A DNA stretch of 64,000 bases from Thermodesulfobacteriota bacterium (GTDB taxonomy: Bacteria > Desulfobacterota > Desulfobacteria > Desulfobacterales > C00003060). The stretch spans positions 1 to 64,000 of the forward strand of contig JAXHVD010000011.1 in the NCBI GenBank assembly GCA_034189385.1. The letters are read 5' to 3'. The stretch's first letter is position 1. The number at the start of each line of letters is the position of its first letter. Under the pieces are notes generated by a model. It did not search any database and was not told the DNA's origin. It worked only from the letters and a program-made list of their open reading frames with translations. Shown here piece by piece: positions 16,036 to 29,171 of this stretch. Made by a program: the position numbers and the translations under genes.

Positions 16036-16065
16036 GTGAGTTACCCCTTCCGCCTCTTTGATACG

Positions 16066-16860
16066 TCATTTTTCGTCGGGCCTGCCGGGCTTGTAGTAGC
16101 ACTGCCGAAGGCTTTGTTGCATCTCTCGAAAGGCATCAGTCAATGCCCCGACTTCATCCTTTGATCGGCTGGCCGGTATTTCCTGGGTGACATCACCTGT
16201 GGCGATAGCCCTTGCAGCCTTGGTCAGCATTCCCAGCGGAACGATGATCATCCGGTGCAGAAGCGCTATGATGAAGGCGACAAGAAATCCAAGACAGATC
16301 CCAAACTGTACAAGGATCTTGTTTCGGCGCTCCCTGAGCTTTTGGCTGGTCGGCTCCCACACGAATCCCACAGTGAGAGCCCCCAATATCCTTTTCGCCA
16401 CGCCATGGCACTTATGACACGCTTTGTCATTCACGACCGGCATGGCATAGCGAAATATCTGTTGACCTTCCCGAACCTCCAGCCCCTTGACCAATGATCG
16501 AGTTCTTAAGGTTTCTGTCGTGATTTCTGATTGGGTGACTTTGCCAACCGTTCTTCGCTTGCCGCTGTACTTGATCAACCCGTCTGGATCACACAGATGA
16601 GCCACCTCCAGGTCTCTTAAGGCGTTTACCCTTTCAAGGATTTCTTGGACATCTCCCATTTCACCGTCGAGCATTGGATATTCTATGCTCTTCATGACCG
16701 TATCGCTGATATCAAAAGCCTTCTTCTTCTGTTCATTTAGGAAGGCCCTGTCATGATAGGTAATATCCATGTAGGCAAACACGCCCATTGTCACAATGAG
16801 AACCAGAGCGATTGCTAGTATTAACTTGGACCCCAGGCCATAGAAGGGCGCCCAACTCAT
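16066..16860 (-). CDS. Membrane-bound heme-c sensor domain plus HAMP, no output domain
   Basis: Two TM helices, CHKCH, HAMP (PLGMLT..IATGD..DEVGALTDAFREM). Shares KSIEYPMLDGEMxDVQ with the downstream kinase. Confidence 0.85.
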   Translation of the reverse strand: MSWAPFYGLGSKLILAIALVLIVTMGVFAYMDITYHDRAFLNEQKKKAFDISDTVMKSIEYPMLDGEMGDVQEILERVNALRDLEVAHLCDPDGLIKYSGKRRTVGKVTQSEITTETLRTRSLVKGLEVREGQQIFRYAMPVVNDKACHKCHGVAKRILGALTVGFVWEPTSQKLRERRNKILVQFGICLGFLVAFIIALLHRMIIVPLGMLTKAARAIATGDVTQEIPASRSKDEVGALTDAFREMQQSLRQCYYKPGRPDEK

Positions 16861-16864
16861 CGTG

Positions 16865-17320
16865 TTACAACTCCCTGTGCCCGTGTTGGGTATGGCATTG
16901 AGTACAGATGTTTCTCGGAATCTTCAATGTTTCCTTTTTCTTGGCCCTGGTTGTCGCCTTTATATGAAGGCTTGCTGGGCCGTGGCAAACCTCACATTGG
17001 ACATTGGTCAGATGTGGCGTTTTTTCTATACTTACAAATCCGCCGGGCTCCCCATATCCAGTTGTGTGGCAGGGGAGACATTGTTGATCGTGTTCCCTGG
17101 TCCTCATTTCCAGTATCCTAAAGTTCCGAGAACGCTTGAATCCGCGATATGCTTCTACGAGTGAAGCATGACAAACCTTACATTTTTCCCAACCCACATA
17201 GACTGCCTGTTCTTCCTTTTTGTCGGAAGAGGTGTCGACGGTTGGAAACCCCACACTGCAAAACAAAATGACTACGCTGGCTGCCAGCAAAACTGCATAT
17301 GCGTATATTGCCTTCTTCAT
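16865..17320 (-). CDS. Tetraheme cytochrome c (c554-like family)
   Basis: N-terminal hydrophobic signal/anchor; four CxxCH (CKVCH, CLPCH, CEVCH, CTQCH); YVG..C and CHTTGYGEPGGF motifs; RBS ggggagga before 17320. Confidence 0.88.
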   Translation of the reverse strand: MKKAIYAYAVLLAASVVILFCSVGFPTVDTSSDKKEEQAVYVGWEKCKVCHASLVEAYRGFKRSRNFRILEMRTREHDQQCLPCHTTGYGEPGGFVSIEKTPHLTNVQCEVCHGPASLHIKATTRAKKKETLKIPRNICTQCHTQHGHREL

Positions 17321-17417
17321 TTCCTCCCCCTTTTGACGACTATCGGCAGCTTTGTTGCGCCTTAGAAGCTGTGGCCGCCTATGATGGAATGTGTCCGGCA
17401 TTCAACCATGATTCAAT

Positions 17418-17538
17418 ATTGAACCCTCCCCGCGGCAAGCCACGGGGAATCTTCACCGCAAGGATGTTGTCATTTTAACTATACACTCGCTAACCCCGCC
17501 GCAAGCAGCGGGGAATGCGCTCGCTTATTCGGTTCAAT
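17418..17538. repeat. Full-length ~120-bp MITE/REP-like element with terminal inverted repeats and two GCAA hairpins
   Basis: ATTGAAC...GTTCAAT ends; internal ccccgcggcaagccacgggg and ccccgccgcaagcagcgggg hairpins, each followed by aat. Confidence 0.8.
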
Positions 17539-17590
17539 GGAGCCCAAAAAGGCGCTTTTCCCATGAATCGCTGAATCGCAACGACATGTC

Positions 17591-18520
17591 TTATGCAACC
17601 ACCCAAAGAGCTGGGCTGGCGATCTTTTGCACCAGCCGCATGGCAATGCGCCCCGTAAACACCGCTTCTCTCTCGCCGCGTCGTCCGATCACCACGGTAT
17701 CGTATTCTTGGGATCTTGCTTCATCAAGGATCGCCGTGGAAACGTCATGACTCCCAGTATTCGTCTTGATCTTGATCTGGCTTTTCTTAACTCCCGCTGC
17801 GGTGAGCATCGTCTCCGCTCTCCTATAGAAAACCTCCATGCGCTTGCTGTCTTCCTCCTGAACCACGCTTTGAAGTGCTGGGTTCTGGTGCTCAAAATCA
17901 ATGGAGTAGTAATGTCTCAAAAACGGAATCACGTGAAACAAGGTCAGCTGCAGCTGGCGATTATTTCCAACCATGTCGACCAGGTGACTCAACTGGCGGA
18001 GGGAGCTTTCGGACCCATCAACAGCGATGAGAATGTTCATAGAAGTCTTTTCTCCACCTACAATCCACACAGGGATCTCTAATGCATGTTCCACTACCTT
18101 TGCAGCCGTCGTGCCGATAAAGAAATCTGGACTGGGAGTAAGCCCCCTCCGTGCGAGGACAATAGCCTTGTAGGCACCTTGTTCAGCGTGGCGCAAAATG
18201 TCCTTTGCCATTCCGGCCTCAAGAGGTGCAGCTACCACCTCGACGCGCCTTTCAGATATCCCTTCTTCAACAATAAGATCCTTCAACGCACCAACAACAC
18301 GCTGGGCGTTTTCAGCGTTCTTTTGAATAAGCTTGTTGACTTCAGACCTCACCTTGGGATCTATCTTGGCCCCTGCAATAAACATTTTGGGAACAGGAAG
18401 CTGCACGTTAAACAGTGTATATTTTAGATCCTTCGCCGCCGATGATGTTTTGGCAACGTATTTAACGGCCTTCTGTGAATAGACACAGTCGCCGACAGCG
18501 ACCAGAATCTTCTTTTCCAT
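17591..18520 (-). CDS. Universal stress protein (tandem USP domains)
   Basis: KKILVAV.. and NILIAVDGSESS domain starts; IVLARRG..FFIGTTAAKVV and VVIGRRG..FTGRIAMRLV. Confidence 0.9.
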   Translation of the reverse strand: MEKKILVAVGDCVYSQKAVKYVAKTSSAAKDLKYTLFNVQLPVPKMFIAGAKIDPKVRSEVNKLIQKNAENAQRVVGALKDLIVEEGISERRVEVVAAPLEAGMAKDILRHAEQGAYKAIVLARRGLTPSPDFFIGTTAAKVVEHALEIPVWIVGGEKTSMNILIAVDGSESSLRQLSHLVDMVGNNRQLQLTLFHVIPFLRHYYSIDFEHQNPALQSVVQEEDSKRMEVFYRRAETMLTAAGVKKSQIKIKTNTGSHDVSTAILDEARSQEYDTVVIGRRGEREAVFTGRIAMRLVQKIASPALWVVA

Positions 18521-18640: not shown

Positions 18641-18877
18641 CTATCTTTCGTCATCAGGCTTTTTTCTCAACAGGATGCGATAGCAAGCTGTATCATCCTC
18701 GGAGCTCACTAGCTCGTAATGGGGTGCTTCCAAAATCTTGAAAAGGTCCTGGCGCGTTTGCCCGTCAGTGCCCACTATTTCCAGTGTTTGTCCGGGATCT
18801 AGTCCCCTGAAGGCTTCTGTCACCTTCAGAAGCGTAATGGGCGCTATCATTCCACGAAGATCAAGTTGATAAACCAT
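18641..18877 (-). CDS. TusA-family protein lacking the persulfide Cys
   Basis: LDLRGMIAPITLLK..LDPGQTLEIVGTD..DL..YRILLRK fits the TusA/SirA pattern, but CPxP is replaced by APIT. Confidence 0.75.
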   Translation of the reverse strand: MVYQLDLRGMIAPITLLKVTEAFRGLDPGQTLEIVGTDGQTRQDLFKILEAPHYELVSSEDDTACYRILLRKKPDDER

Positions 18878-18926
18878 ATCCTGATCCAAGCCTGCCCCCC
18901 TTGGTGTCTTTTTACTCATTACTAGG

Positions 18927-18942
18927 GCAAAAACCTTGCCAA
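18927..18942 (-). promoter_or_regulatory. Sigma54 -24/-12 promoter for the tusA-like/usp genes
   Basis: Minus strand TTGGCAAGGTTTTTGC, with GG-N10-GC, 50 bp upstream of the ATG. Confidence 0.8.
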
Positions 18943-19370
18943 CTTTTAGGGATATAGGCCTTGATCCGCAAACCTGACGATGGCAGGCTGATTTACAAAC
19001 CCACACCAGCGCCCGCTTCCTTCTTTGCCGCTCCTGGGTAGGTACGAAACTAGCTTCTTCTTGGCGGATAAGTGTTAAATTGTTAAGAAGGATAACTAAA
19101 CAGGTGCTAAATCTTAACGGGTTATCCCCGTGCCTGAACAAGACAGTTCAAACGATCACAAGAAACAACACAAAGGGGTTGATGGGAAAACCGTGTGCTC
19201 TTCTAATGAAAAGAAGAGCTTGACCCGGAGGCCCATCAAAAGACTCAGGCACAAGGCGGGGCCGCCTCCTGTACTGGATAGGTTGGGCAACAAGGGCTTG
19301 GGGGATCACCTTCGGCAAGGCGATGACATGAGCCAGCTGGAAGTCGTCTATTGGGCTAGCAAATGCCGTC

Positions 19371-20372
19371 CTATCCTAGGACAATAAAAACGAGGCCGAC
19401 CACAGCCATAGCATTGGCAATAACCCAATAGCTCATGGGAATTTGGGTAATTTTTAGTCTTGCGGTAGCTGTCCTCGGCAACGTCACCATAAGTATTACA
19501 ACCAGAAAAAGCTTCACAAAAAAGAAGCAAAAATCCAGAGCCAAAGCGTCACGTCCTTCTATGCCAATGATGGGACAGATATCGTAGGGAAAGAATAAAG
19601 CGATCGTTAGAGTGCCTACGGCCACCGTCTTGACAGCATCAGAAAGATAGAACAGGGCGAAATTCCGGCCTGAGTAATCTGTCAGCGCGCCTTCTGCGAT
19701 TTCTGAGCTTGCCTCACAAACATCAAAGGGTATGGTCCCTGCCTGACCGGGAGTCACCACCATCAAGGACATAAGGAGTAAGAGCATCCCTATATTACCC
19801 AAGAGGCCCATTTCACCCCACAATGGATGGGAGGAAATGAATCCAAGGCTAAAAACACTTTGTAATGGATAAAGCTGATTTAGCTTCCAGGCAATAGAGA
19901 TGATGACGACAGCTAGGGGGAATTCATATGACATCATCGTTATCATCTTGCGCTGCGCCCCGACCGTGGCCAGTCGGGAAGATGAGGCAAACCCTCCAAG
20001 GGTCACAGACAATCCAGGAATGAGTAGAATGTACAAAACCAAAATAACGTCACCCTGTCCAGAAAGCACAGGAGTAAAGGGCACGTTGCCAAAAGGCAGG
20101 TACAGAAGCAAGGTTATAACGGAGGCAAGAGATATGATCGGTGCACCATTATAGAGCCATGACATTGCTCTTTCCGGCTGAACGGTGTCCTTAATCATGA
20201 ACTTGCTTACATCCCGAAAGGGCTGTATGATGGGCGGGCCCACCCTGCGCTGCATGTGAGCAGCAATTTTTCGATCAAAGCCTTTCAGCAGTAGACCGCA
20301 AAAGACGACAAAGAGGCCAAGACCGATGGGCCCTATGACTGCTCCTAAGATAACGTCCAAGGGAACCTTCAT
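19371..20372 (-). CDS. NuoH/MbhM-like membrane subunit
   Basis: DRKIAAHMQRRVGPPIIQPFRDVSK, SYEFPL, PFD..EASSEIAEG..DYSG, RTATARLK. Confidence 0.92.
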   Translation of the reverse strand: MKVPLDVILGAVIGPIGLGLFVVFCGLLLKGFDRKIAAHMQRRVGPPIIQPFRDVSKFMIKDTVQPERAMSWLYNGAPIISLASVITLLLYLPFGNVPFTPVLSGQGDVILVLYILLIPGLSVTLGGFASSSRLATVGAQRKMITMMSYEFPLAVVIISIAWKLNQLYPLQSVFSLGFISSHPLWGEMGLLGNIGMLLLLMSLMVVTPGQAGTIPFDVCEASSEIAEGALTDYSGRNFALFYLSDAVKTVAVGTLTIALFFPYDICPIIGIEGRDALALDFCFFFVKLFLVVILMVTLPRTATARLKITQIPMSYWVIANAMAVVGLVFIVLG

Positions 20373-20434
20373 TGTGCGCTATCGTAACATCGACGGCTCA
20401 AATAACAGTGCAACTCCTGTATGATCCTCAACGC

Positions 20435-20818
20435 CTACCCTCTTTCTAGTCTTGCCATGGGATGCTTCATCAGTGAACCAGGATCAGGTGTGGCAAGAAA
20501 AACGTTATTTGTCATGTTCAGACATCTCTTCGGACATATATCCTGACAAAGGGCACAAAAACAACACTTTCTGAGGTCTATTCTAGGGTACGCCTTTGGA
20601 TATTTCTGTGTATATGGTTCAGGTAGCTTCACCATCTCTATAGCCTTGTTTGGGCATACCTCTTGGCAAAGACCGCAACTTATGCATCTATGAAGATCAA
20701 GTTCCTGTTCTCCGCGGTAACCGGCGGGCATTGGAATAGCTTCATGAGGAAACTGAATCGTCATGGGCCGTGAAAACAGCCCCTTGACTAATACCCACAC
20801 GGTTCCAACCATACTCAT
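20435..20818 (-). CDS. NuoI/MbhN-like 2x[4Fe-4S] subunit
   Basis: TIQFP..YRG; CISCGLCQEVCP and CCFCALCQDICP. Confidence 0.92.
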   Translation of the reverse strand: MSMVGTVWVLVKGLFSRPMTIQFPHEAIPMPAGYRGEQELDLHRCISCGLCQEVCPNKAIEMVKLPEPYTQKYPKAYPRIDLRKCCFCALCQDICPKRCLNMTNNVFLATPDPGSLMKHPMARLERG

Positions 20819-20828
20819 CTTTTGTGGC

Positions 20829-21992
20829 CTATCTGTCCATGTCTGCTGGACAAATATTCAGACTCCAGTAGATTGCCGGCACATCGGCCAGCTCACAACC
20901 CTTTAGTAAATGTTCCAGGACGGGTATCATGTGGAGGAAATCAGGCCCCCTCACCTTCACCCGGTAAGGTCCAGTTTCCCCCACGCTCCTCATATAAATA
21001 CATGCTTCGCCTCTGGCAACTTCATTACGCACATAGACCTCGCCCTCAGGGATCTTTATGCGGGAAGGCCGTTTCAGTTTTGAGGGATTTCTTGTTTTGC
21101 CCTCGGGCATTCTATCTAGGACTTGTCTTATGATCTTTATGGATTGTTCCATCTCCAGATCTCTAATGGTGCAGCGTGCATTGGCATCTCCCTCTTTTCC
21201 AGTAGGAACATCAAAGTCAAGTCCGCTATATATTTCATAAGGATCATCCTTCCTCACATCTGTTTTCATTCCAGACGCCCTCAGCACGGGCCCTGTGGCC
21301 CCCAGTCGAATAGCGTCTTCTAAATTCAAAACGCCAACCCCTTTTGTCCTCTTGGCAAAAAAGAGATTATCGAAGGACTTCATCTGGTCCATGAATTCCT
21401 TTATCTTGTCCAAAAGTTCTCTTATCCTTTTCCCATAGCCTTCGGGCAAATCTCTTCTCACTCCTCCGTCACAGATATATCCCGCTGGATAGACTCTGCC
21501 TCCTGTGATGAGCTCGAATATATCCAGTATGTAGTCCCTATGGCCAAAGGCCAGCCTAAAACCGGTATCAAAACCAAGGGCGAGGCTCATGACCCCGTAC
21601 CATATCATATGGGATTGCAGTCTCGAGAGCTCGGCCATTAACACCCTGATGTATCTGGCCCGCTCGGGCACTTCGATGCCGGTGAGCTCGTCCACTGCCT
21701 CGGCATGCACCAGATTCCAATTAAGAGGTTCAAGCACGCAGAGTCTGTCCGACAACACGGCATTTTGAATCGGTATCCTGTATTCCATCAATTTTTCAAA
21801 GCCACGGTGCAGATATCCAGGATCGGCACGGGCAGACAAAACCCTTTCTCCGTCTAATCTTAGCTTTACCCCGAAGTTTCCAGAGCCGGAATGGGCAGGC
21901 CCAAAATAGAAATCATACTCTGTGCCATCGTCCGTGTCAGGTGGTCTCTGGTCATTGCCAGTAGGGCTTTTCCCGTTCCTCTGATTTGTCAT
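20829..21992 (-). CDS. NuoD/MbhL-family large subunit without NiFe motifs (MbsL/MbxL-like)
   Basis: FGPAH, GYLHRGFEKL, RLCVLEP at the L1 position, ELSRLQSH, GGVRRD, TGPVLRASG..DVRKDDPY, C-terminal SLNICPADMDR at the L2 position. Confidence 0.9.
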   Translation of the reverse strand: MTNQRNGKSPTGNDQRPPDTDDGTEYDFYFGPAHSGSGNFGVKLRLDGERVLSARADPGYLHRGFEKLMEYRIPIQNAVLSDRLCVLEPLNWNLVHAEAVDELTGIEVPERARYIRVLMAELSRLQSHMIWYGVMSLALGFDTGFRLAFGHRDYILDIFELITGGRVYPAGYICDGGVRRDLPEGYGKRIRELLDKIKEFMDQMKSFDNLFFAKRTKGVGVLNLEDAIRLGATGPVLRASGMKTDVRKDDPYEIYSGLDFDVPTGKEGDANARCTIRDLEMEQSIKIIRQVLDRMPEGKTRNPSKLKRPSRIKIPEGEVYVRNEVARGEACIYMRSVGETGPYRVKVRGPDFLHMIPVLEHLLKGCELADVPAIYWSLNICPADMDR

Positions 21993-22470
21993 AACATCTC
22001 TGCCTCACATAATCTCTCCAATTGAAATCTTTCCTAAACGGCGGAGGCCCATGCCAGTCCTCCAGGAAGAGTGGGGCTACGTCGGGATTGCCTCTAAATT
22101 TCACACCGAACAGCTCGTGTAGCTCCCTTTCATGTATCTGTGCATTTTCGTGGAATATGGGCATGGCAGAGTCCATTTGGGGATCTGCCCTTTTTGTTTT
22201 TGTCTTTACAGTGAGTAGAATTTTTAACGAGTATGACCAGAGATGATACGTAAGCTCAAAAGTTCCGTCCTTGGGCCAATCGGTAACAGAGATTGCTGAA
22301 AGATGGTCAAAGCCTAATCCCCTGGCAAAGCGACACAGGGAAACCAACTCGTTTTTTGGCACCGTCGTCCACACCCGTCGATCTCTTTGGACGGTGGCCT
22401 CAATCTCGAACACCGCTCTTAACAGTTGAGCAAGTTTGTCTTCTTTGCTTTGCTGTGAAATCTCGGCCAT
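21952..22470 (-). CDS. NuoC/MbhK-like subunit
   Basis: GFDHLSAISVTD, HERELHELFGVKFRGNP, LEDW..PPFRKDF. Confidence 0.9.
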   Translation of the reverse strand: MAEISQQSKEDKLAQLLRAVFEIEATVQRDRRVWTTVPKNELVSLCRFARGLGFDHLSAISVTDWPKDGTFELTYHLWSYSLKILLTVKTKTKRADPQMDSAMPIFHENAQIHERELHELFGVKFRGNPDVAPLFLEDWHGPPPFRKDFNWRDYVRQRCYDKSEEREKPYWQ

Positions 22471-22895
22471 TACTGCATTGCTCTCACATGTTCAAATATT
22501 TTCTCACAAGCCTCAAATACCGCCTCCGGCCTGGGTGGACAGCCAGGGACGTATATATTGACCGGAATATAGTCTGACACCCTTTTGACGGTATTGTATG
22601 AATCCCAGTACATTCCGCCACTCATCGTACATGCGCCAAGGGCAATGACCGCCTTTGGATCAGGCATTTGCTCGTAGACTCTTTGAGCTCTTTTCATGGA
22701 CTTAAAAGTCTGATATCCGGCAACGAACAAAACGTCGGCGTGCCTGGGAGTCCCCGTGATGATCATCCCGAATCTTTCCATATCCCATCTTGAGCCAACG
22801 ACTGGAACCAGCTCTGCGAATCCGCATGAGTTGAACCAATTGAACACCCATATAGCCCGTATTAATCGCTTCATCTTTATTGCTTGTTCAACCAC
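22470..22895 (-). CDS. NuoB/MbhJ-like small Fe-S subunit (MbsJ-like)
   Basis: SCGFAE, RWDMERFG, PRHADVL, YEQMPDPK, GACTMSGGMYWDSYN, PGCPPRPE. Confidence 0.92.
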   Translation of the reverse strand: MVEQAIKMKRLIRAIWVFNWFNSCGFAELVPVVGSRWDMERFGMIITGTPRHADVLFVAGYQTFKSMKRAQRVYEQMPDPKAVIALGACTMSGGMYWDSYNTVKRVSDYIPVNIYVPGCPPRPEAVFEACEKIFEHVRAMQ

Positions 22896-23231
22896 TTATA
22901 ACAGCTCCAACGCAAAGACTACGATCAAGGTTATGGAAAGAAAAGTCAAAAACCAGATGATATAGTCATTGACTATTCCTGTATGCATCGTTGTGGCCTG
23001 TGCATAGTATCTTTTGAGCCCTTGGAAAAACCCCCAGTATATATTGTGTGCCCTCACATGGCTCCTGTGTTCGGGTAACATTTTATTTCCCATCAGGAAC
23101 GCTTCGCCCTGCACGCCCCTTTTGTGTCCTTTTTGCCCCCTCGTTCGAATAAGACAGGCCATAACAACAGATACAACGGTGGCGATGATCCACGGTACAG
23201 GTCCCCAACATCCTGAAGGGCTTGCCATCAT
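22896..23231 (-). CDS. MbhI-like membrane subunit
   Basis: N-terminal TM, FLMGN, NIYWGF, amphipathic segment, HTGIVNDY, C-terminal TM; sits between the H- and J-like genes. Confidence 0.8.
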   Translation of the reverse strand: MMASPSGCWGPVPWIIATVVSVVMACLIRTRGQKGHKRGVQGEAFLMGNKMLPEHRSHVRAHNIYWGFFQGLKRYYAQATTMHTGIVNDYIIWFLTFLSITLIVVFALELL

Positions 23232-24796
23232 GACATGCCTCCCATGATTCCATTCATGTATGTACCCTGGTTTATTAACGCCTCTACAGCCGGCTCAACG
23301 ATCTGGTCCATAATGAGCCCGGGAAATAGGCTAAAAAAAACAATGATGGCGGCCAAGATACCCATACCGCCCAGCATTGGCTTTGGCACTTCTTTTACAG
23401 CCCTAACGTGTGGTGAGATCGGTCCGGTAAACGCTGACTGGAAGACCTTGACAAAAGAGGCCAACGTCATGATCGAGACCATCATGGCAACGACGGAAAG
23501 CATGGGATTGAATTGATATACAGATTCATAGATCAACAGCTTTGAAGCAAATCCGTTGAAAGGGGGAATGCCAGAAATCGCCAGGGCTCCGATCATAAAA
23601 AACACGCAGGTATATCTCATGTTGCCACCTATCCCCCCCATCTTATTGAGATCTCTGGTGCCTAGGGCGTAAAATAACGCTTCTGCCGTCAGAAATAACA
23701 GCCCCTTGTACATAGCGTTGTTGATGATGTGGAATATACCCCCGCCCATGGCTTGTCTCCCATAGGTGGACAAGGCCTGTGAGTCACTTAAAACTGCCAA
23801 GCCTACCCCTACGCCAAGCAGCATATACCCGCTCTGGGAGACGGCGTGATAGGCCATGAGGCGTTTGATATCAGATTGGTACACAGCCATGGTGACCCCC
23901 ACGAACATGCTCAACAGCCCTATCCCTATGACGATCCACCCAATGGTAAGGGTATTCAACGTTACTCCATACAGAGTAAAGCAGACACGGAACAAGGCAT
24001 ACATGCATGCTTGGCTGGCAACATAGATCATGGGCGTGGTGCCTGCCGGAGCAACACTATAGGTGTCAGGGGCCCACATGTGCAGTGGCACCCCAGCTAG
24101 CTTCATGATAAACGCCATGATCAGCAAGGCCAGGGCTATCTTATCAAGGGTCGTGTATTGTATGGCTTGGGCCAGGGCAGCGATGTTGAGCAGATTATAC
24201 TGCCCGTAGAAAATGCCTACAGCAAATAGAATCATCAGTGATGCAACGGCGGATATGAACATATACTTGAATCCGCCTTCCAGGGCATCTACAAAGCCAG
24301 TCCTAAAGGAAGCTAGCGCTGCCCCGGAGAGAGAAAGTATTTCCAGGAATATAAATAGATTGAACATGTCTCCGGTGAATTCCAGCCCCATCATGCCTGC
24401 CGTGAGCAGAAGAAGGAGGGTGTAAAACTTGTCTTTTCCCGTGTCCCTTCTCATAAAGGAAACAGAGTAGATGGCGGCCGCCAAAGAGACCGTAGCGGAT
24501 ATGAAACCCATAAGAATAGACATGGCATCTACTTCCAGCACGATGCGCACAGGTGCCATGTGATGTTCAGGCCTGGCCAACAGGGGTGAAGAGGCGCCGA
24601 GTGCATATATGTGTAAACCGCCTAGGTAAATATCCACAGCCAAAATGATGACGAGAAACTCCACAAAAACCAGGGTGGCTATGACCAGCACATCCCGCCC
24701 CTTGTCACTCACCCTACTGATTAAGGGTGTCAAGAATGCGCCCAGCAGGGGAATGGCGATGATGAGTACAGGAGAGTGGGCGAGCAGGACGTCCAA
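23228..24796 (-). CDS. MrpD/MbhH-like antiporter-type subunit
   Basis: TGDMFNLFIFLEI, KLAGVPLHMWAPDTY, DIKRLMAY, GIPPFNGFASK; highly hydrophobic. Confidence 0.92.
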   Translation of the reverse strand: MDVLLAHSPVLIIAIPLLGAFLTPLISRVSDKGRDVLVIATLVFVEFLVIILAVDIYLGGLHIYALGASSPLLARPEHHMAPVRIVLEVDAMSILMGFISATVSLAAAIYSVSFMRRDTGKDKFYTLLLLLTAGMMGLEFTGDMFNLFIFLEILSLSGAALASFRTGFVDALEGGFKYMFISAVASLMILFAVGIFYGQYNLLNIAALAQAIQYTTLDKIALALLIMAFIMKLAGVPLHMWAPDTYSVAPAGTTPMIYVASQACMYALFRVCFTLYGVTLNTLTIGWIVIGIGLLSMFVGVTMAVYQSDIKRLMAYHAVSQSGYMLLGVGVGLAVLSDSQALSTYGRQAMGGGIFHIINNAMYKGLLFLTAEALFYALGTRDLNKMGGIGGNMRYTCVFFMIGALAISGIPPFNGFASKLLIYESVYQFNPMLSVVAMMVSIMTLASFVKVFQSAFTGPISPHVRAVKEVPKPMLGGMGILAAIIVFFSLFPGLIMDQIVEPAVEALINQGTYMNGIMGGMS

Positions 24797-24800
24797 TCGA

Positions 24801-25154
24801 TTATCCTTTCAATGTCCTCGATCTTTTTGCATCTATATGGCCTGTATGGCGGTAAATAACCATGATCATGGAAAGCATAAACGCTGTAATGGCCACACCG
24901 ATAACAATGCTGGTGAGGGTCAAAGCCTGAGGCACAGGCAAGACCATATTTGTATGGCAAGCATTGGTGTAGATTGGAACGCCCCCATCTTGCCTATATC
25001 CCAAACCAACGAGGAATAGGTTCACCCCAGCCTCCAAGACAGTAATACCCATGACCAACTTAATTAAGTTTCTGTTGAATACAATGATGGATAATCCAGT
25101 GCCGATCAATGCTGCTACCGCCAAAAAGGGGATGTTTGAGATACATTGTGTCAT
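24801..25154 (-). CDS. MrpC/MbhG-like subunit
   Basis: NLIKLVMG..LEAGVNLFL, PVPQALTLTSIVIG; ATGA overlap with the upstream gene. Confidence 0.9.
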   Translation of the reverse strand: MTQCISNIPFLAVAALIGTGLSIIVFNRNLIKLVMGITVLEAGVNLFLVGLGYRQDGGVPIYTNACHTNMVLPVPQALTLTSIVIGVAITAFMLSMIMVIYRHTGHIDAKRSRTLKG

Positions 25155-25612
25155 TGTTCTGATCGTCCTTTTCCAACGGCTAAAGCCATGACGAAAACAA
25201 TGAGCGACAGGCCGGCAATCACTTTCAGTCCAACAGCCATATTCATCAAGGGGATGGTTCCGCCCGTCCACATATCTCCACGATTGGGGCCAAAGGCGGG
25301 GATATGGCCGAAAACCGACGAGCCAACAAGGAAATTGTAAAAAAATCCAACGGCCACTCCCCCTAACGCCAAGCCGATGAATGCCAGTGCCCCGGTGCTT
25401 TCCAGCACGGAAAGGGTGGATGCTCTTAATCTTTTCTCCACTTTCTCAGCACCAAAAGCCACCACAAGCAGGGTCATGCCCGAGGCAAAGACAGCACCTC
25501 CCTGAAAGCCTCCTCCCGGTGTCACGTGCCCATGCATGATCATGTATAGACCAAAGGTAAAAACAAAAGCCATTAGAAGCTCGGAGACAGTTCGGACAAT
25601 CTTGGACATCAC
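25151..25612 (-). CDS. MrpB/MbhF-like subunit
   Basis: HGHVTPGGGFQGG, GGTIPLMN..VGLKV. Confidence 0.9.
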   Translation of the reverse strand: MMSKIVRTVSELLMAFVFTFGLYMIMHGHVTPGGGFQGGAVFASGMTLLVVAFGAEKVEKRLRASTLSVLESTGALAFIGLALGGVAVGFFYNFLVGSSVFGHIPAFGPNRGDMWTGGTIPLMNMAVGLKVIAGLSLIVFVMALAVGKGRSEQ

Positions 25613-25884
25613 CTCGTTGTCTGTCCTTTCCTTGTTCTGAATAGCATGACGACTCCAGTCACCGCCGTAAAGAGAATCGTAGCTTCGCCTAAGGTATCAA
25701 GCCCCCTATAATCGAAAACAACAGCGGTTACAGCATTGTTGGCCCCTGTTTCACGCTGCGTATGCTTGATGATATACTCATCCATTTGAGCTGGGGGATC
25801 TCCAAAAGGGTGGACAAGCAAGGCGCTCACTGCAAGAAAGACAATCACGATTGCCAAAGATATATTTGCGGCAAAGCATCTCAC
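25609..25884 (-). CDS. MbhE-like subunit
   Basis: TGANNAVTAVVFDYRGLDTLGEATILF. Confidence 0.9.
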   Translation of the reverse strand: MRCFAANISLAIVIVFLAVSALLVHPFGDPPAQMDEYIIKHTQRETGANNAVTAVVFDYRGLDTLGEATILFTAVTGVVMLFRTRKGQTTR

Positions 25885-26135
25885 TCTCTCTCCTCCATGC
25901 GTTTTGTTGCTTTGATAGCAATAACAAATATGGCTGTGGTGATGGCTGCTCCTATACCGGCCTCTGCAAGCGCCACATCAGGTGCTTTAAGCAGGTAAAA
26001 CTCCAAGGATAACAGAAGACTCATGGCAGCCAAAGCGATGGTGGCAGCGATCAAGTCCCTCACTGTTGCCACAAACAATGCACAAACAACAATGAGTATA
26101 GGTATGGCTATATGTAGGATTGCTAGCTCAATCAT
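25881..26135 (-). CDS. MbhD-like (DUF4040) subunit
   Basis: RDLIAA..LKAPDVALAEAGIGA. Confidence 0.88.
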   Translation of the reverse strand: MIELAILHIAIPILIVVCALFVATVRDLIAATIALAAMSLLLSLEFYLLKAPDVALAEAGIGAAITTAIFVIAIKATKRMEERE

Positions 26136-26490
26136 AGGGTGCGCCCTCAAGATCGTCTATGACCGCTAGGGCAGGTTTAATCCCGCTCCTATGGCCTGCC
26201 CTGGCAATGGCATGGGCTCCAGTTGGGTTGGTCATTAGAAGGGCAATCAGGGCAATAAAGGCGTGTATGCAAAGCACTGATTGAGGTGAGGTGAGGCCTC
26301 CTATGACCCAAGCCCTCAGTGAATGGATCATGACGGCCAGCACTAAAAAGATGGAGCCAAAGGTTGCGCATTTGGTTCCAGCATGAAGCCTGGTGTAGAA
26401 ATCCGGAAAACGATGAAGCCCGATCGTTGCCATGAGGTTAAAGAAACAGCCCATCGCTATGAAGGCATAAGTGGTAATATCAAGTGCCAC
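26128..26490 (-). CDS. MrpG/MbhC-like subunit
   Basis: RFPDFYTRLHAGTK, TNPTGAHAIARA. Confidence 0.92.
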   Translation of the reverse strand: MALDITTYAFIAMGCFFNLMATIGLHRFPDFYTRLHAGTKCATFGSIFLVLAVMIHSLRAWVIGGLTSPQSVLCIHAFIALIALLMTNPTGAHAIARAGHRSGIKPALAVIDDLEGAPYD

Positions 26491-26744
26491 TAGAATGAAC
26501 CTTTCTCGATATATTTGGCGATGAAAAGCGTGGTGACAAAAGAAAGTAAGGCATAAACAATGCCTACATCAATGAGTAAAACCTCTTCAAATGCTGCCCC
26601 CAGGATCACCATTGATACGACCACGATAGTATTGACCGTATCCAGGCCCACAATTCTGTCTGGAACGGTTGGGCCCAGGAGCACCCTGACGAGGGCTATC
26701 GTGATACATATGGCCAGGAACACAGCCACAAGAAGCCAGATCAT
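26490..26744 (-). CDS. MrpF/MbhB-like subunit
   Basis: RVLLGPTVPDRIVGLD, DVGIVYALLSFV..AKY; ATGA overlap. Confidence 0.92.
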   Translation of the reverse strand: MIWLLVAVFLAICITIALVRVLLGPTVPDRIVGLDTVNTIVVVSMVILGAAFEEVLLIDVGIVYALLSFVTTLFIAKYIEKGSF

Positions 26745-27271
26745 CCCGCTAACCTTCTTGCCCAAGCAGGGAATGTTCCACAGATGTCTTTGTAATCTCT
26801 AGGCATTGTCTTCAAGGTCTCTTTGTGCACATTGATCCAGTGGATATACAGGTCATTGGTTTGTTCATCGAGGTCCACGCTCAGGGTGCCTGGCGTAAGC
26901 GTAATGGAATTTGCCAGAAGCGTGAGACCTAAATCGGTCTTTAGGTTTGGGGAAATCTTGACGATGCCGGGATTTATCTTTCCGGTCACGACTCTATAAA
27001 CCAGATCAAGATTGGCTTTTGCCATGCCCCAGAAAAAAGGTCCTGCCAGGTATGCAAAAAACAGCGGCCACCTTATTGGGGTTAGGAGGAGGAGGCGTTT
27101 TTTCATAGCCAGCTTTGTTGTAAGTGCCCCTATGATCAGAGCGAAGATCGCCCCTATAATGAGTTCCGCTTTGCTCCACAGAAATAGGTTGCCCGAGGAT
27201 GTGGTCAGAAGTAGATAGAATACAAAGGCTGAGGCCGTGTGAACTAGAAAGGTCATGACACGAGGTCCCAA
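26741..27271 (-). CDS. MrpE/MbhA-like subunit
   Basis: KANLDL, INPGIV, LANSITLTPGTL, LYIHWI. Start is 27271 (TTG) or 27256 (ATG). Confidence 0.92.
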   Translation of the reverse strand: MGPRVMTFLVHTASAFVFYLLLTTSSGNLFLWSKAELIIGAIFALIIGALTTKLAMKKRLLLLTPIRWPLFFAYLAGPFFWGMAKANLDLVYRVVTGKINPGIVKISPNLKTDLGLTLLANSITLTPGTLSVDLDEQTNDLYIHWINVHKETLKTMPRDYKDICGTFPAWARRLAG

Positions 27272-27497
27272 AAACTGATTAGCTCATAAGGTGCTCCCGC
27301 CAAGACCGTGAAAAGGTCCCTTCGGGTTTGACGTTCGTTTCCCAGTATTTTCGGTGCCTCGCCTGGATCTAGCTTGTTGAAGACTTGCATCAGCTTCAGA
27401 AGCAAAATGGGAGCCACCATTCCGCGAAGATCGCATTGATAAGCAATGTCCCGTTACGAGTTGGCTAATGCCCCCGAGCTTTTCACCAGTGGCTCTC

Positions 27498-27779: not shown

Positions 27780-29171
27780 GTGAGCCCCATGCTTGAGCAA
27801 GAATTGAATGCGTACTGGAAAACAGTTGTGGACACAATCCAAGACGGATTGATGGTGTTGGACAAAGCCGGGACCATCATCAGCGTGAACAAGGCCCTTG
27901 AAACCATAACAAAGTACAGTCGAAATGAATTGATTGGGAAACCATGTACTGTGCTGACGTGTGACATTTGTGAGATTGCCAGGGGGAAAAAAGGAAAGGA
28001 CTGGTGCCTCTTATTCCGTACGGGGAGTTTCAACATGCGAAAAGGCACCCTGATCCGCAAAGACGGAACCTCAGTTCATATTATCAAAAACGCATCGCTT
28101 CTTCGTGACGCCCATGGTCATGTAATAGGAGCCGTGGAGACGGTAACAGACGTCAGTGAAATGGTTGAGAAAGACACACAGATTGAAGCCTTCCGACGTG
28201 AGCTCAAATCGGAAGATAGTTTCCATGGAATCCTTGGGGGCTCTGCCAAGATGCAGAGTGTATTCGAGCTAGTTGGAAATGCCGCCCTGTCTGATGCACC
28301 CGTTCTCATTCTTGGTGAAAGCGGTACGGGCAAAGACCTGGTGGCCCAGGCCATTCACACCATAAGTCAGCGCAGACAGCGCCCGTTCGTGAGGGTCAGT
28401 TGTGCGGCATTGACAGAATCTCTCCTGGAAAGCGAGCTTTTTGGACATGTGAAAGGGGCCTATACAGGGGCCTATCGGAGCAGGAGAGGACGGTTTCAGG
28501 CGGCCGAAGGTGGCAGTATCTTTCTAGACGAGATTGGTGATCTTCCCTTGTCAACGCAAGTCAAGCTGCTTCGCGTTCTCGAAGAGAGTGTTGTTGAACG
28601 GGTGGGAGACAACACGTCTATCCATGTTGATGTGCGGGTTATCTCGGCAACCAATAAGGACCTCAAAGAGCACGTGAATCAGGGCGCTTTCAGAGACGAT
28701 CTCTTTTACAGGATCAATGTCATACCGATTTTTCTGCCACCTTTAAGGGAAAGGCGCGAGGACATCCCCCTGCTGGCGGAATCTTTTTTCCGAAAAATTA
28801 GGTTAAAAAGTGGAAGCAAGGCCAAAGGGATAAGTAATGAAACAATGCGCGTCTTCATGGAATATCCCTGGCCGGGAAATGTGAGGGAATTGAAAAGCGC
28901 CTTCGAATATGCACTGGTCTGTTGCGGGAATTCGTTAATTCGACGGCATCACCTACCGCCCAGGTTTCACCAGGCAAAAAAAGTCGAAAGTACGCCCCAG
29001 CAGGCCTCCATCAGTCGTGAAGAGACAAAAAAACTGGACCTTGTTAATGCCCTTGAGTTGGCAAGGGGTAACAAGTCGAAAGCTGCGAGAATATTAGGGG
29101 TTTCCCGAGTTACTGTCTGGAATCGCATGAAACGGTTTGGGATTGACATCAAGACTAAGATAGATAGCTAG
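27780..29171 (+). CDS. PAS-domain sigma54-dependent activator (NtrC/Fis family)
   Basis: PAS domain with Cys ([11 protein letters not shown]); [38 protein letters not shown]-terminal HTH ([21 protein letters not shown]). Confidence 0.93.

What the first reader, a model, noticed from the sequence alone, without database searches (positions are those of the whole stretch)
19371..27271. Hybrid respiratory complex in a bacterium: MBH-type 14-subunit architecture with a NiFe-less, MBS (sulfane reductase)-like catalytic head
Seen: 14 co-oriented, mostly abutting or overlapping genes in the order MrpE,F,G-like (A,B,C), D, E, F, G, one antiporter-like H, I, J, K, L, N, M. The large subunit has RLCVLEP and a terminal NICPADMDR, so each NiFe CxxC motif is reduced to one Cys (C85 and C381 of this ORF). 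It has no C-terminal maturation extension, and no hyp maturation genes are in the window. It also lacks the NuoD quinone-site Tyr (DRLDY becomes DRLCV). Established: Thermococcales MBH has separate E and F, one H plus I, and a NiFe site. MBS/Mbx has two antiporter-like subunits (H, H'), no I, and a NiFe-less L with two residual Cys (recalled as RICVPE and DNCPPDIDR). Inference: this locus pairs the MBH membrane arm with an MBS-type head, making a ferredoxin-driven, ion-translocating oxidoreductase that probably reduces a sulfane/polysulfide or another non-quinone, non-proton acceptor. It would be an intermediate architecture in the MBH-MBS-complex I series, in a Desulfobacterota-like host. I cannot tell whether this combination has already been reported.
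Basis: partly seen in the sequence, partly recalled or inferred. Interest (0 to 1): 0.88.

Follow-up and report, generated by a model that had tools for sequence, protein, structure and literature searches.

The report
Hydrogenase-type ion pump, sulfur-reductase head
A sediment bacterium carries a 14-gene respiratory complex that joins the ion-pumping membrane part of a hydrogen-making enzyme to the nickel-free catalytic head of a sulfur-reducing one, and related DNA shows that such heads are swapped on and off this pump in nature.

Summary
Window 27271-19371 (minus strand) holds 14 tightly packed genes, A-I, J, K, L, N, M.

- **Membrane arm:** H, I and M match the P. furiosus hydrogenase MBH best. 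The arm has one antiporter-like H, an MbhI homologue, and separate E and F.
- **Head:** J, K, L and N match the sulfane reductase MBS best. L keeps one Cys of each NiFe pair (C85/E88, C381/D384). It lacks the proton-donor Glu, the C-terminal extension and the quinone His/Tyr.
- **New here:** J has the short MBS-type loop and only the three Cys that hold the catalytic proximal [4Fe-4S] in MBS.
- **Evolution:** Trees put L in the NiFe-less MBS-like group, outside Nuo and MBH. H and M fall among true NiFe-MBH arms. This is not an evolutionary intermediate but a recombinant. Its arm nests among metagenome loci that carry one A-H arm and two heads (this head plus a NiFe head), or this JKLN cassette inserted inside an MBH operon.
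- **Distribution:** MbhI was found in none of 400 other genomes of the phylum.
- **Function:** Ferredoxin-driven ion pumping with sulfane-sulfur reduction is inferred, not shown.
- **Prior sightings:** This scan noted the same hybrid before in a CPR genome. I found no paper describing the architecture.

The parts
26741..27271 (-). A: MrpE/MbhA-like subunit. The true start is possibly the ATG six codons in.
   Evidence: Pfam MNHE 118.7 bits. NCBIfam PRK08383 198.5 bits, above its cut-off of 192.
26490..26765 (-). B: MrpF/MbhB-like subunit
   Evidence: Pfam MrpF_PhaF. NCBIfam NF009242 105.8 bits against a cut-off of 89.
26128..26490 (-). C: MrpG/MbhC-like subunit
   Evidence: Pfam PhaG_MnhG_YufB. 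NCBIfam PRK12672 150.8 bits against a cut-off of 122.
25881..26150 (-). D: MbhD-like subunit
   Evidence: Pfam MbhD 64.3 bits.
25609..25884 (-). E: MbhE-like subunit, a separate gene as in MBH
   Evidence: Pfam MbhE 34.5 bits. In 33 loci with two H genes the E/F equivalent is one gene of 226-331 aa.
25151..25612 (-). F: MnhB/MbhF-like subunit, a separate gene
   Evidence: Pfam MnhB 97.1 bits. NCBIfam PRK08386 149.7 bits against a cut-off of 92.
24801..25154 (-). G: MrpC/NuoK-like subunit. The ORF is open to 25271, but the likely start is the ATG at 25154.
   Evidence: Pfam Oxidored_q2, matching residues 49-155 of the long ORF. ATGA overlap with the stop of F.
23228..24796 (-). H: the single antiporter-like subunit, MbhH type
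   Evidence: PDB scores: 6cfw_H 347.9 bits, against MbsH 131.6 and MbsH' 131.2. E152, K232, the TM11 His/Lys and K419 are kept. The TM8 Lys is Ser-Gln, as it is in true MBH arms. Trees.
22896..23231 (-). I: MbhI-like two-helix subunit. By homology it supplies 'loop 1' at the head/arm junction.
   Evidence: NCBIfam MbhI 96.0 bits against a cut-off of 95. 6cfw_I is the only PDB match.
22470..22895 (-). J: NuoB/MbsJ-like small subunit with a three-Cys proximal [4Fe-4S] site (C24, C89, C119)
   Evidence: Best PDB match 6u8y_J, 132 bits. C24, C89 and C119 align with MbsJ C28, C93 and C123; MbsJ C25 aligns with F21. The loop is short, MBS type. MBS coordination is taken from PMC7684303.
21952..22470 (-). 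K: NuoC/MbsK-like subunit
   Evidence: Best PDB match 6u8y_K, 74.5 bits. The next match scores 47.4. MbhK is not among the 18 hits at E<=1e-8.
20829..21992 (-). L: NiFe-less large subunit, MbsL-like. It has C85/E88 and C381/D384, a clade-specific C174, and no C-terminal extension.
   Evidence: PDB scores: 6u8y_L 320.1 bits, Nqo4 245.1, MbhL 177.1. Motif tables. Tree.
20435..20818 (-). N: 2x[4Fe-4S] ferredoxin-like subunit (two CxxCxxCxxxCP motifs), the presumed ferredoxin entry point
   Evidence: Pfam Fer4 families. Within the complex I family: MbsN 75 bits, NdhI 59.6, MbhN 50.3.
19371..20372 (-). M: NuoH/MbhM-like membrane anchor of the head, placed after N
   Evidence: PDB scores: 6cfw_M 166 bits against 6u8y_M 84.1. 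The M tree groups hybrid and true-MBH M proteins (93) apart from MBS M (99).
27401..27416 (-). Putative sigma-54 -24/-12 element (TGGCTCCCATTTTGCT), about 130 nt upstream of A
   Evidence: One mismatch to TGGCAC-N5-TTGCW. Only 6 sites in the 64-kb window, both strands, have one mismatch or fewer. The consensus is recalled. This is weak evidence.
27780..29171 (+). Divergent PAS / sigma-54 activator / HTH_8 regulator, a possible regulator of the operon
   Evidence: Pfam Sigma54_activat 235 bits, PAS_9 and HTH_8. The link to the operon rests on position only.

Best explanation
What is shown: this is a complete, self-contained 14-subunit member of the Mrp-linked complex-I superfamily, built from two modules of different ancestry.

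- Module 1 is an MBH-type ion-translocating arm (A-H) with MBH-type junction subunits I and M.
- Module 2 is an MBS-type, nickel-free, all-iron-sulfur head (J, K, L, N).

What is inferred from homology to P. furiosus MBH and MBS: reduced ferredoxin delivers electrons to N. They pass through the two clusters of N to the proximal [4Fe-4S] of J. Only three cysteines hold that cluster, so one iron is open. There an S-S bond of a sulfane-sulfur compound (polysulfide, organic polysulfane or persulfide) is reduced to sulfide. The redox change is passed through the I, L and M loops to H and the small subunits, which export H+ and exchange it for Na+. The arm would have two rather than MBS's three proton paths, so fewer ions per electron pair.

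History: the operon reached this Desulfobacterales-like lineage by lateral transfer. It most likely descends from a two-head locus (one A-H arm, this head plus a NiFe hydrogenase head) that lost the hydrogenase head.
For: Module identities, as PDB phmmer bit scores:
- L: MbsL 320 against MbhL 177 and Nqo4 245.
- J: MbsJ 132 against MbhJ 115.
- K: MbsK 74.5, with MbhK not listed.
- N: MbsN 75 against MbhN 50.
- H: MbhH 348 against MbsH and MbsH' about 131.
- M: MbhM 166 against MbsM 84.
- I: MbhI only.

Hallmarks of the MBS active site:
- L has the same Cys/Glu and Cys/Asp pattern as MbsL C85 and C385.
- J has exactly the three Cys that coordinate the catalytic cluster in MBS, on the short loop. 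True MBH J proteins (L089, L090) carry CxxC on a loop 3-4 residues longer (PMC7684303 passages).
- All 12 query-clade J proteins from genome contigs share FNSCGF.

Trees:
- L falls in a NiFe-less group (95) that excludes Nuo and MBH, in its own clade (99).
- H and M fall with true MBH (100 and 93).

Same-genome control. An Atribacterota genome holds a true MBH operon whose arm is 52-58% identical to the window's for A-H (M 47%, I 34%), while its head subunits are 29-48% (J 48%, L 34%). It also holds a stand-alone JKLN whose J is 82% and L 63% identical to the window's.

Origin:
- The window's H nests (100) in a clade of 9, of which 7 come from two-head or nested loci.
- The nested order A-I j k [JKLN] l M would give A-I JKLN M on loss of j, k and l.
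- No trace of a second head remains in the window.

Lateral transfer: MbhI was found in 1 of 401 genomes of the phylum, G000 only, and in 1 of 41 relatives.

Conservation: 54 full-length query-clade L proteins from metagenome contigs keep C85, E88, C174, C381 and D384; one has S at 174. The pump residues E152, K232 and K419 in H are kept.
Against: - No activity, expression or structure data exist for this clade. No RNA run holds the locus.
- The MBS chamber that admits hydrophobic polysulfide is partly built by MbsM, and it is described as wider than the MBH chamber (PMC7684303). Here M is MBH-type, so substrate access may differ.
- The query clade has its own invariant Cys (C174) that MbsL lacks. 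It is 42-49% identical in L to the canonical two-H MBS operons found, so its chemistry may have diverged.
- No conserved sulfur-metabolism gene accompanies the operon. The TusA-like ORF downstream lacks the active Cys and is not conserved elsewhere.
- The same head occurs without any arm, sometimes beside Hdr and ETF genes. That hints at other partners.
- The TM8 Lys of MbhH is absent, although it is equally absent in the true MBH arms examined.
- All trees used the 'quick' search with SH-aLRT support only. No Thermococcales, Fpo or Ehr reference sequences could be included.
Confidence: 0.55

Rival explanations
1. Same chimeric complex, but the head works on something other than free sulfane sulfur. 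It might exchange electrons with a soluble partner such as an Hdr-like, thiol/disulfide or persulfide carrier. Or it might run in reverse, using the ion gradient to reduce ferredoxin with sulfide or thiols.
For: - The same JKLN head is encoded with no arm within at least 2 kb on either side in 11 loci.
- In one Thermoplasmata locus it sits between ETF and HdrA-MvhD/CCG genes.
- The clade-specific invariant C174 is absent from MbsL.
- M is MBH-type, so the chamber may be narrow (PMC7684303).
- Many canonical MBS-type operons found lie in sulfur-oxidising Gammaproteobacteria, where the reverse direction would make sense. This is inference.
Against: - The defining catalytic feature of MBS, the three-Cys proximal cluster on the short loop, is intact.
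- No partner gene is conserved beside the one-head operons.
- No Hdr or ETF gene is near this operon.
Confidence: 0.25
2. It is a ferredoxin:menaquinone oxidoreductase, a complex I-like enzyme as the automatic 'NuoD' annotations imply.
For: - L passes the NCBIfam NuoD model PRK06075 at 381 bits against a cut-off of 360.
- Public names for relatives are 'NADH-quinone oxidoreductase subunit D'.
- G000 has no other NuoD-family gene, at 90% completeness.
Against: - The quinone ligands H38 and Y87 of Nqo4 are S37 and V86.
- J lacks the tandem CC of NuoB, which real Nuo from relatives has: ACCAIEM in L093 and L094.
- L groups away from Nuo (95).
- The arm is Mrp/MBH type, with one antiporter-like subunit.
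Confidence: 0.07
3. It is an H2-evolving MBH hydrogenase, as 14-gene A-N clusters are often annotated.
For: The subunit count and the arm are MBH-like. A paper on Thermoprofundales reports H2 evolution for an 'MbhL' from loci with split JKLN and ABCDEFGHIM clusters (PMC9585477, passages read). I could not see its sequences.
Against: - Two of the four NiFe cysteines are Glu and Asp.
- The proton-donor Glu (MbhL E21) aligns with G38.
- There is no C-terminal maturation extension.
- No hyp or hycI gene is in the window.
- True NiFe L' genes in sister loci keep all of these features and sit beside HycI, HypA and a CobW/HypB/UreG-family gene.
Confidence: 0.03
4. It is an assembly chimera or a decaying relic with no function.
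For: The genome is a 64-contig draft. The best DNA holder may be the source sample.
Against: - The same order occurs in 5 other loci from independent assemblies, plus 10 tandem loci.
- All 14 ORFs are intact with translational-coupling overlaps.
- J is 65-94% and L 60-89% identical across phyla.
- A second study's contigs cover all 30 bins of the locus.
Confidence: 0.03

Closest known systems
MBS (formerly MBX), membrane-bound sulfane sulfur reductase of Pyrococcus furiosus (PDB 6U8Y; PMC7684303)
   Same: The head matches. J, K, L and N all match MBS best. L has one Cys per NiFe pair with Glu/Asp partners. J has the short loop and the three-Cys proximal cluster. Both have an Mrp-type Na+/H+ module and no NADH or other input module.
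   Different: - One antiporter-like subunit instead of H plus H'.
- A separate MbhI instead of the H' C-terminal helices.
- E and F are split, not fused.
- M is MBH-type.
- Gene order is ...I J K L N M, not ...H H' M J K L N.
- L belongs to a distinct clade (CPAD, not CPP[DE]) with an extra invariant Cys174.
- J lacks even the non-ligand Cys25.
MBH, membrane-bound [NiFe] hydrogenase of P. furiosus (PDB 6CFW) and its bacterial and archaeal relatives (here L089 Thermoplasmata, L090 Atribacterota)
   Same: Fourteen subunits A-N; a single H; MbhI; split E and F. H and M group inside the MBH clade. A-H are 52-58% identical to the Atribacterota MBH operon (M 47%, I 34%).
   Different: The head is not a hydrogenase. 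There is no NiFe site, no E21, no C-terminal extension and no four-Cys long-loop J. The order is JKLNM, not JKLMN. No hyp or hycI genes are nearby.
Canonical 13-gene MBS-type operons in bacteria (strain 3DAC, PMC10356935; about 33 two-H loci found here, such as Thiodiazotropha, Sedimenticola, Bacteroidales, Spirochaetes)
   Same: NiFe-less L and an Mrp-linked arm, in bacteria.
   Different: Those have H plus H', a fused E/F gene (226-331 aa), M before J and no MbhI. Their L is only 42-49% identical to the window's.
[quoted passage not shown]
   Same: Group-4-hydrogenase relatives that lack the Ni/Fe ligands. A CPR 'Ehr' clade without the Cys was reported in 2020. One hybrid locus found here (L014) is labelled as a Saccharibacteria bin.
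   Different: Ehr is an umbrella label without a defined subunit architecture. The passages I read describe only the large subunit, not an MBH-arm/MBS-head combination. The defining paper (Marreiros et al. 2013) is recalled and was not read.
Stand-alone MbsJKLN-like modules
   Same: The same head clade: J 65-82% and L 60-68% identical (77% over the partial L of L013). The motifs are the same, including C174.
   Different: Those have no adjacent membrane genes. Here the head is wired into a full arm with its own I and M.

Membership tests
MBS (P. furiosus type) | Large subunit keeps two of the four NiFe cysteines (MbsL C85, C385) and has no NiFe site | tested here: met
   C85/E88 and C381/D384 align with MbsL RICVPE and CPPD.
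MBS (P. furiosus type) | Proximal [4Fe-4S] held by three Cys on a loop three residues shorter than in MBH | tested here: met
   C24, C89 and C119 align with MbsJ C28, C93 and C123. The loop length equals that of MBS. True MBH J proteins are longer (PMC7684303).
MBS (P. furiosus type) | Two antiporter-like subunits, H and H' | tested here: not met
   Only one Proton_antipo_M gene. It groups with MbhH.
MBS (P. furiosus type) | No MbhI; loop 1 is supplied by the H' C-terminus | tested here: not met
   A separate MbhI homologue is present.
MBS (P. furiosus type) | Single fused MbsE in place of MbhE plus MbhF; 13 subunits | tested here: not met
   E (91 aa) and F (153 aa) are separate genes, giving 14 in all.
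MBS (P. furiosus type) | Ferredoxin-dependent polysulfide/DMTS reduction | not testable with these tools
   This needs an enzyme assay.
MBH (group 4d [NiFe] hydrogenase) | Fourteen subunits with a single H, MbhI and split E/F | tested here: met
   The gene table in PMC2678158 gives the P. furiosus reference.
MBH (group 4d [NiFe] hydrogenase) | Large subunit with two CxxC motifs, the E21 proton donor and a C-terminal extension | tested here: not met
   The window has CVLE and CPAD, G38 at the E21 position, and ends at ...DR. L089, L090 and 16 L' genes show the true pattern.
MBH (group 4d [NiFe] hydrogenase) | Small subunit with a four-Cys proximal cluster (CxxC on the long loop) | tested here: not met
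   The window has FNSCGF, against SCNGCD in L089 and L090.
Complex I / Nuo | NuoD quinone ligands (Nqo4 H38, Y87) and the NuoB tandem Cys-Cys | tested here: not met
   S37 and V86. J has a single Cys where L093 and L094 Nuo have ACCA.
Complex I / Nuo | Three antiporter-like subunits (NuoL, M, N) plus NuoA and NuoJ | tested here: not met
   The arm is Mrp/MBH type with one antiporter-like subunit.
Ehr, broad sense | Group-4-related complex whose large subunit lacks the full set of Ni/Fe-binding residues and which has antiporter-like subunits | tested here: met
   The definition is as worded in PMC6349859. The original definition (Marreiros 2013) was not read.

The most novel reading that the evidence does not exclude
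The I-JKLN-M set is a plug-in catalytic cartridge for a shared Mrp/MBH ion pump. Some organisms encode one A-H arm with two cartridges, a NiFe hydrogenase and this nickel-free head, each with its own I and M. They could therefore pump ions with either protons or a second acceptor. The window is a lineage that kept only the nickel-free cartridge. In this head clade the invariant third cysteine, C174, may have turned the vestigial NiFe pocket, or the open iron of the proximal cluster, into a new active site. (C174 lies six residues after the position that I recall as the cluster-N2-adjacent His169 of Nqo4.) If so, its substrate is not the one MBS uses.
Probability: 0.3. Interest if true: 0.8.

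Novelty: new variant of a known kind. Interest (0 to 1): 0.6.

Why it matters
- **Evolutionary narrative.** The accepted story for complex I evolution is a stepwise line: MBH, then MBS, then complex I, with head and arm changing together (PMC7684303, PMC8165549). A widespread natural enzyme with an MBH arm and an MBS head shows that heads and arms are exchangeable modules. So do the loci with two heads on one arm, or with the head cassette inserted inside an MBH operon. Gene content alone therefore cannot order the steps.
- **Natural experiment.** The same catalytic head sits on a pump with two rather than three proton paths. That bears on how ion/electron stoichiometry is matched to driving force.
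- **Annotation.** These genes are named 'NADH-quinone oxidoreductase' or 'MBH' in public records. Sediment MAGs carrying them may be wrongly credited with complex I or with H2 production.
- **Host physiology.** For this sulfate-reducer-like host, which shows no Nuo, this may be its only complex-I-type coupling site.

Tried and rejected
- **TusA link.** The ORF 230 nt downstream (18641-19141) has a TusA domain. It lacks the CPxP cysteine, reading RGMIAPI (the motif is recalled). It has no counterpart near any other locus at E<=0.01. I dropped it as a sulfur link.
- **Conserved neighbours.** The flanks of L003 and L009 hold unrelated or unassigned genes.
- **RNA evidence.** No RNA holder was listed. 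The four DNA holders are marine or marine-sediment metagenomes from two studies.
- **Reference sequences of Thermococcales MBH and MBS.** These could not be fetched as sequences. The 14 control genomes did not ring for MbhI. I used PDB bit scores and newly found true MBH, Nuo and Ech loci as references instead.
- **Literature for the hybrid.** I ran nine full-text searches and read passages of 12 papers. None describes an MBH arm with an MBS head. PMC7507113 holds none of the terms I searched. Schut et al. 2016 (BBA) is not held. Marreiros et al. 2013 was not sought. Both could bear on novelty.
- **PMC9585477.** It describes Thermoprofundales 'MBH' with JKLN split from ABCDEFGHIM, and states that the NiFe Cys are conserved. 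I could not check its sequences or supplements. A Thermoplasmata genome here (G440) holds both a true NiFe MBH operon and a NiFe-less stand-alone JKLN.
- **Structure and complex prediction.** Not run. The tools return no coordinates, so the distance from C174 to the cluster could not be measured. A head-anchor docking job would pass by likeness to solved structures.
- **GC content.** The operon (0.48-0.49) is only slightly below its flanks (0.50-0.54). This is too weak to use.

Full report
**1. What is there**

On the minus strand, from 27271 to 19371, lie 14 intact, co-oriented ORFs. Pfam assigns 13 of them: MrpE, MrpF, MrpG, MbhD, MbhE, MnhB, NuoK-like, one Proton_antipo_M, NuoB, NuoC, NuoD, a 2x[4Fe-4S] protein and NuoH. 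The 111-aa ORF has no Pfam hit. It matches NCBIfam MbhI at 96.0 bits against a cut-off of 95. At E<=1 its only PDB match is chain 6cfw_I.

Neighbouring genes overlap by 1-41 nt, abut (I/J), or are 4, 10 and 62 nt apart. G most likely starts at the ATG at 25154, in an ATGA overlap with the stop of F. No other redox input module lies in or beside the operon, and no hyp or hycI gene is in the window.

The rest of the window is bacterial and diderm in character: LolA, FtsK, TilS, an SLT transglycosylase and a sigma-54 activator. The nearest copy of the operon, 71-91% identical per gene, is in a Desulfobacterales MAG (L003).

**2. Two modules of different kin**

phmmer against all PDB chains splits the subunits cleanly.

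| Subunit | Best match (bits) | Other matches (bits) |
|---|---|---|
| L | MbsL 320 | Nqo4 245; MbhL 177 |
| J | MbsJ 132 | MbhJ 115 |
| K | MbsK 74.5 | MbhK not among 18 hits at E<=1e-8 |
| N | MbsN 75 | MbhN 50 |
| H | MbhH 348 | MbsH 132; MbsH' 131 |
| M | MbhM 166 | MbsM 84 |
| I | MbhI 39 | none |

MBH has two MnhB-like genes, one MnhD-like gene and mbhI. MBS has one, two and none of these.

**3. The head carries the MBS catalytic hallmarks**

L aligns RLCVLEP and NICPADMDR with MbsL RICVPEP and DNCPPDIDR. C85 and C381 are kept, and Glu88 and Asp384 replace the second cysteines. The proton-donor Glu of MbhL (E21; PMC8679088) aligns with G38. L has no C-terminal extension. The quinone ligands of Nqo4, H38 and Y87, align with S37 and V86.

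In MBS the proximal [4Fe-4S] is held by only MbsJ C28, C93 and C123, on a loop three residues shorter than in MBH. It is proposed to be the site of S-S reduction. C25, C85 and C385 are dispensable (PMC7684303 passages).

The window's J has exactly C24, C89 and C119 at those three positions, Phe at the C25 position, and the short loop. All 12 query-clade J proteins from genome contigs read FNSCGF. Four of the 12 have an extra Cys three residues on. True MBH J proteins read SCNGCD on a longer loop.

**4. Wider family and references**

A scan of species-representative genomes with an L alignment kept 80 loci. These loci fall into the following groups.

- **Query clade.** L is at least 60% identical, with the motifs DR.C..E and CPAD and an extra invariant Cys at position 174. 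It occurs in Desulfobacterales, Altiarchaeales, Thermoplasmata, Dehalococcoidia, Atribacterota, Heimdallarchaeota and a Saccharibacteria-labelled bin.
- **Canonical MBS-type operons.** There are 33 loci with two H-like genes and a fused E/F gene of 226-331 aa, with M placed before J. L is 42-49% identical to the window's. Many lie in sulfur-oxidising Gammaproteobacteria, Bacteroidales and Spirochaetes.
- **A small intermediate group.**

Two genomes that hold a stand-alone JKLN of the query clade also hold a complete true MBH operon elsewhere, in the order A-I, J, K, L, M, N. Their L has RICGIC and DPCxxC motifs and a C-terminal tail (L089 Thermoplasmata, L090 Atribacterota).

Against the Atribacterota pair, the window's A-H are 52-58% identical to the true MBH operon (M 47%, I 34%). 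Its J and L are only 48% and 34% identical to that operon. They are 82% and 63% identical to the stand-alone JKLN of the same genome.

Relatives of the host supplied Nuo references (L093, L094) and Ech references (L095-L097).

**5. Trees**

All trees used IQ-TREE 'quick' searches with SH-aLRT support only.

- **L, rooted on Ech.** MBH branches first, then Nuo, then a NiFe-less group (95). That group holds the query clade (99), canonical MBS (99) and the intermediate group (99).
- **M.** Hybrid and true-MBH M proteins group together (93), apart from MBS M (99).
- **H.** Hybrid and true-MBH H proteins group together (100) and are interleaved. MBS H and H' form two separate clades (100 each).

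Fpo and classical Ehr references were not available.

**6. Origin: two-head and nested loci**

A metagenome scan with a J alignment kept 80 further loci. With the 13 genome loci, the 93 loci classify as follows.

| Arrangement | Loci |
|---|---|
| Tandem: A-I, JKLN, M followed at once by I' j k l M' n | 10 |
| Variant of the tandem type (L113) | 1 |
| Nested: A-H I j k [JKLN] l M | 12 |
| A-H I M JKLN | 6 |
| The window's order, with no second head in about 2-5 kb beyond M | 5 |
| I-JKL..., with the 3' end not reached | 4 |
| Stand-alone, at least 2 kb clear on both sides | 11 |
| No arm upstream, downstream flank short | 14 |
| Flanks too short to call | 30 |

The rows are the 80 best J matches to the query, so these shares are not prevalences.

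All 16 second-head L' genes have ER[VI]CGIC[NS]. The 14 that reach their C-terminus have DPC[MI]SCTNR and a tail. In the three tandem loci whose flanks I scanned, a HycI protease gene follows. In one of them HypA and a CobW/HypB/UreG-family gene precede. In L104 the two I proteins are 50% identical and the two M proteins 52%.

In an H tree labelled by architecture, the window and L003 nest (100) in a clade of nine. The other seven members are tandem or nested loci, and the nearest is the tandem locus L104. Holding all eight one-head arms as one clade is rejected, with a log-likelihood 203 lower and p-AU about 1e-54. I named that group after seeing an earlier tree, which weakens the test.

The simplest reading has three parts. 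The JKLN cassette joined MBH operons more than once. Each head keeps its own I and M. The window's A-I, JKLN, M order is what remains after the NiFe genes are lost. No remnant of those genes is left in the window, and G000 has no MbhL-type gene.

**7. Lateral acquisition**

MbhI was found in G000 alone among 41 relatives (24 genomes of the same genus, 16 of the same order) and among 401 genomes of the phylum. Absence in incomplete genomes is not proven. One genus-mate (G004) has a 69%-identical L in a different arrangement...M, JKLN.

**8. How it probably works**

The subunit set, the module kinship and the conserved ligands are shown. The following steps are inferred from MBH and MBS.

1. Reduced ferredoxin docks on N.
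2. Electrons pass along three clusters.
3. The open iron of the three-Cys proximal cluster reduces an S-S bond.
4. The I, L and M loops couple this to H and the small subunits. E152, K232, the TM11 His/Lys and K419 are kept. The TM8 Lys is Ser-Gln, as it is in the true MBH arms.
5. Na+/H+ exchange takes place in the Mrp-like distal part.

According to PMC8165549, MBH has two H+ paths and MBS three. This hybrid would therefore move fewer ions per electron pair than MBS.

The caveats are real. The anchor M that shapes the substrate chamber is MBH-type. The clade has its own invariant C174. The same head exists without any arm, and beside Hdr and ETF genes. I therefore give the sulfane-reductase mechanism about 0.55 and 'another acceptor, partner or direction' about 0.25.

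Regulation may involve the divergent PAS-sigma-54 activator and a one-mismatch -24/-12 element 130 nt upstream of A. This is weak evidence.

**9. Known or new**

Several related things are in print:

- MBS and MBH (PMC7684303, PMC8165549).
- Canonical MBS in a cultured bacterium (PMC10356935).
- Recombination of antiporter cassettes with divergent NuoBCD-like sets (PMC2678158).
- NiFe-less 'Ehr' large subunits in bacteria, including CPR (PMC6349859, PMC7304191).

Several notes described the stand-alone head.

I found no paper describing the MBH-arm/MBS-head architecture, or the two-head and nested loci. This rests on the nine searches listed under Tried and rejected. Subscription papers and supplements were not seen. 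I file the finding as a new variant of a known kind, with an interest of 0.6.

Noticed in passing
L102, L104-L110, L112, L115 (for example L105:5628-17617): Tandem 'two-head' loci. One A-H arm is followed by I-JKLN-M (NiFe-less) and then at once by I'-j-k-l-M'-n, whose L' is a true NiFe subunit. HycI follows in all three loci whose flanks I scanned (L104, L106, L110). HypA and a CobW/HypB/UreG-family gene precede in L110.
   Followed up: partly
L121, L127, L135, L137, L145, L148, L151, L154, L157, L158, L167, L119: Nested loci. The NiFe-less JKLN cassette sits inside a true MBH operon, between its K and L genes: A-H I j k [JKLN] l M.
   Followed up: partly
L024-L028, L031-L033, L035, L037, L041, L043, L046, L048-L051, L054, L056, L060, L062, L063, L067-L070: Canonical two-H MBS-type operons are common in sulfur-oxidising Gammaproteobacteria, including Thiodiazotropha and Sedimenticola symbionts, Thiomargarita and Chromatiales. 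L there reads PRICVPDP/CPPEVDR. A sulfur 'reductase' in sulfur oxidisers may run in reverse.
   Followed up: no
L016-L018, L021, L023, L040, L042, L045, L047, L055, L057, L061, L064, L066: A subgroup of canonical MBS-type L subunits has lost both residual cysteines (CRINVIEP ... LYVVAPEIDR). This fits the report that those Cys are dispensable in MBS.
   Followed up: no
L005:57-9403: In a Thermoplasmata MAG the stand-alone JKLN is flanked by an acyl-CoA ligase and ETF beta/alpha upstream, and by an HdrA-MvhD fusion and a CCG-domain protein downstream. The same genome has a separate true MBH operon (L089).
   Followed up: partly
L053, L073, L082: L-like ORFs of 660-671 aa with QRVCVLDG/CPADHDR motifs occur in Hecatellales, Heimdallarchaeota and an unclassified archaeon. 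They are possibly fusions with K or another domain.
   Followed up: no
G000 whole genome; L093-L098: The window's genome shows no Nuo-type NuoD and no Ech or Mbh large subunit, at 90% completeness. Some genus-mates and order-mates carry Nuo (L093, L094) or Ech-type NiFe hydrogenases (L095-L098).
   Followed up: partly
window 23228-24796; L089, L090 and hybrid H genes: The TM8 lysine of P. furiosus MbhH (K256) is Ser/Thr-Gln or another non-Lys residue in every MBH-type arm examined here, true MBH included.
   Followed up: partly
window 6127-7857: A fused ATP sulfurylase (PUA_2 + ATP-sulfurylase) and APS kinase gene of 576 aa.
   Followed up: no
window 14014-18520: Downstream, on the operon's strand, lie a tandem universal-stress protein, a small multihaem cytochrome c (c554/c7 type), a HAMP protein with an Mcp40H-20 sensor domain, and a PAS histidine kinase. 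No link to the operon was shown.
   Followed up: no
L104:13130-14839: Beside one tandem two-head locus is a 569-aa pyridine-nucleotide-disulfide oxidoreductase fused to a rhodanese domain, of the persulfide/CoA-disulfide-reductase type. It was seen in 1 of the 3 tandem loci whose flanks were scanned.
   Followed up: no
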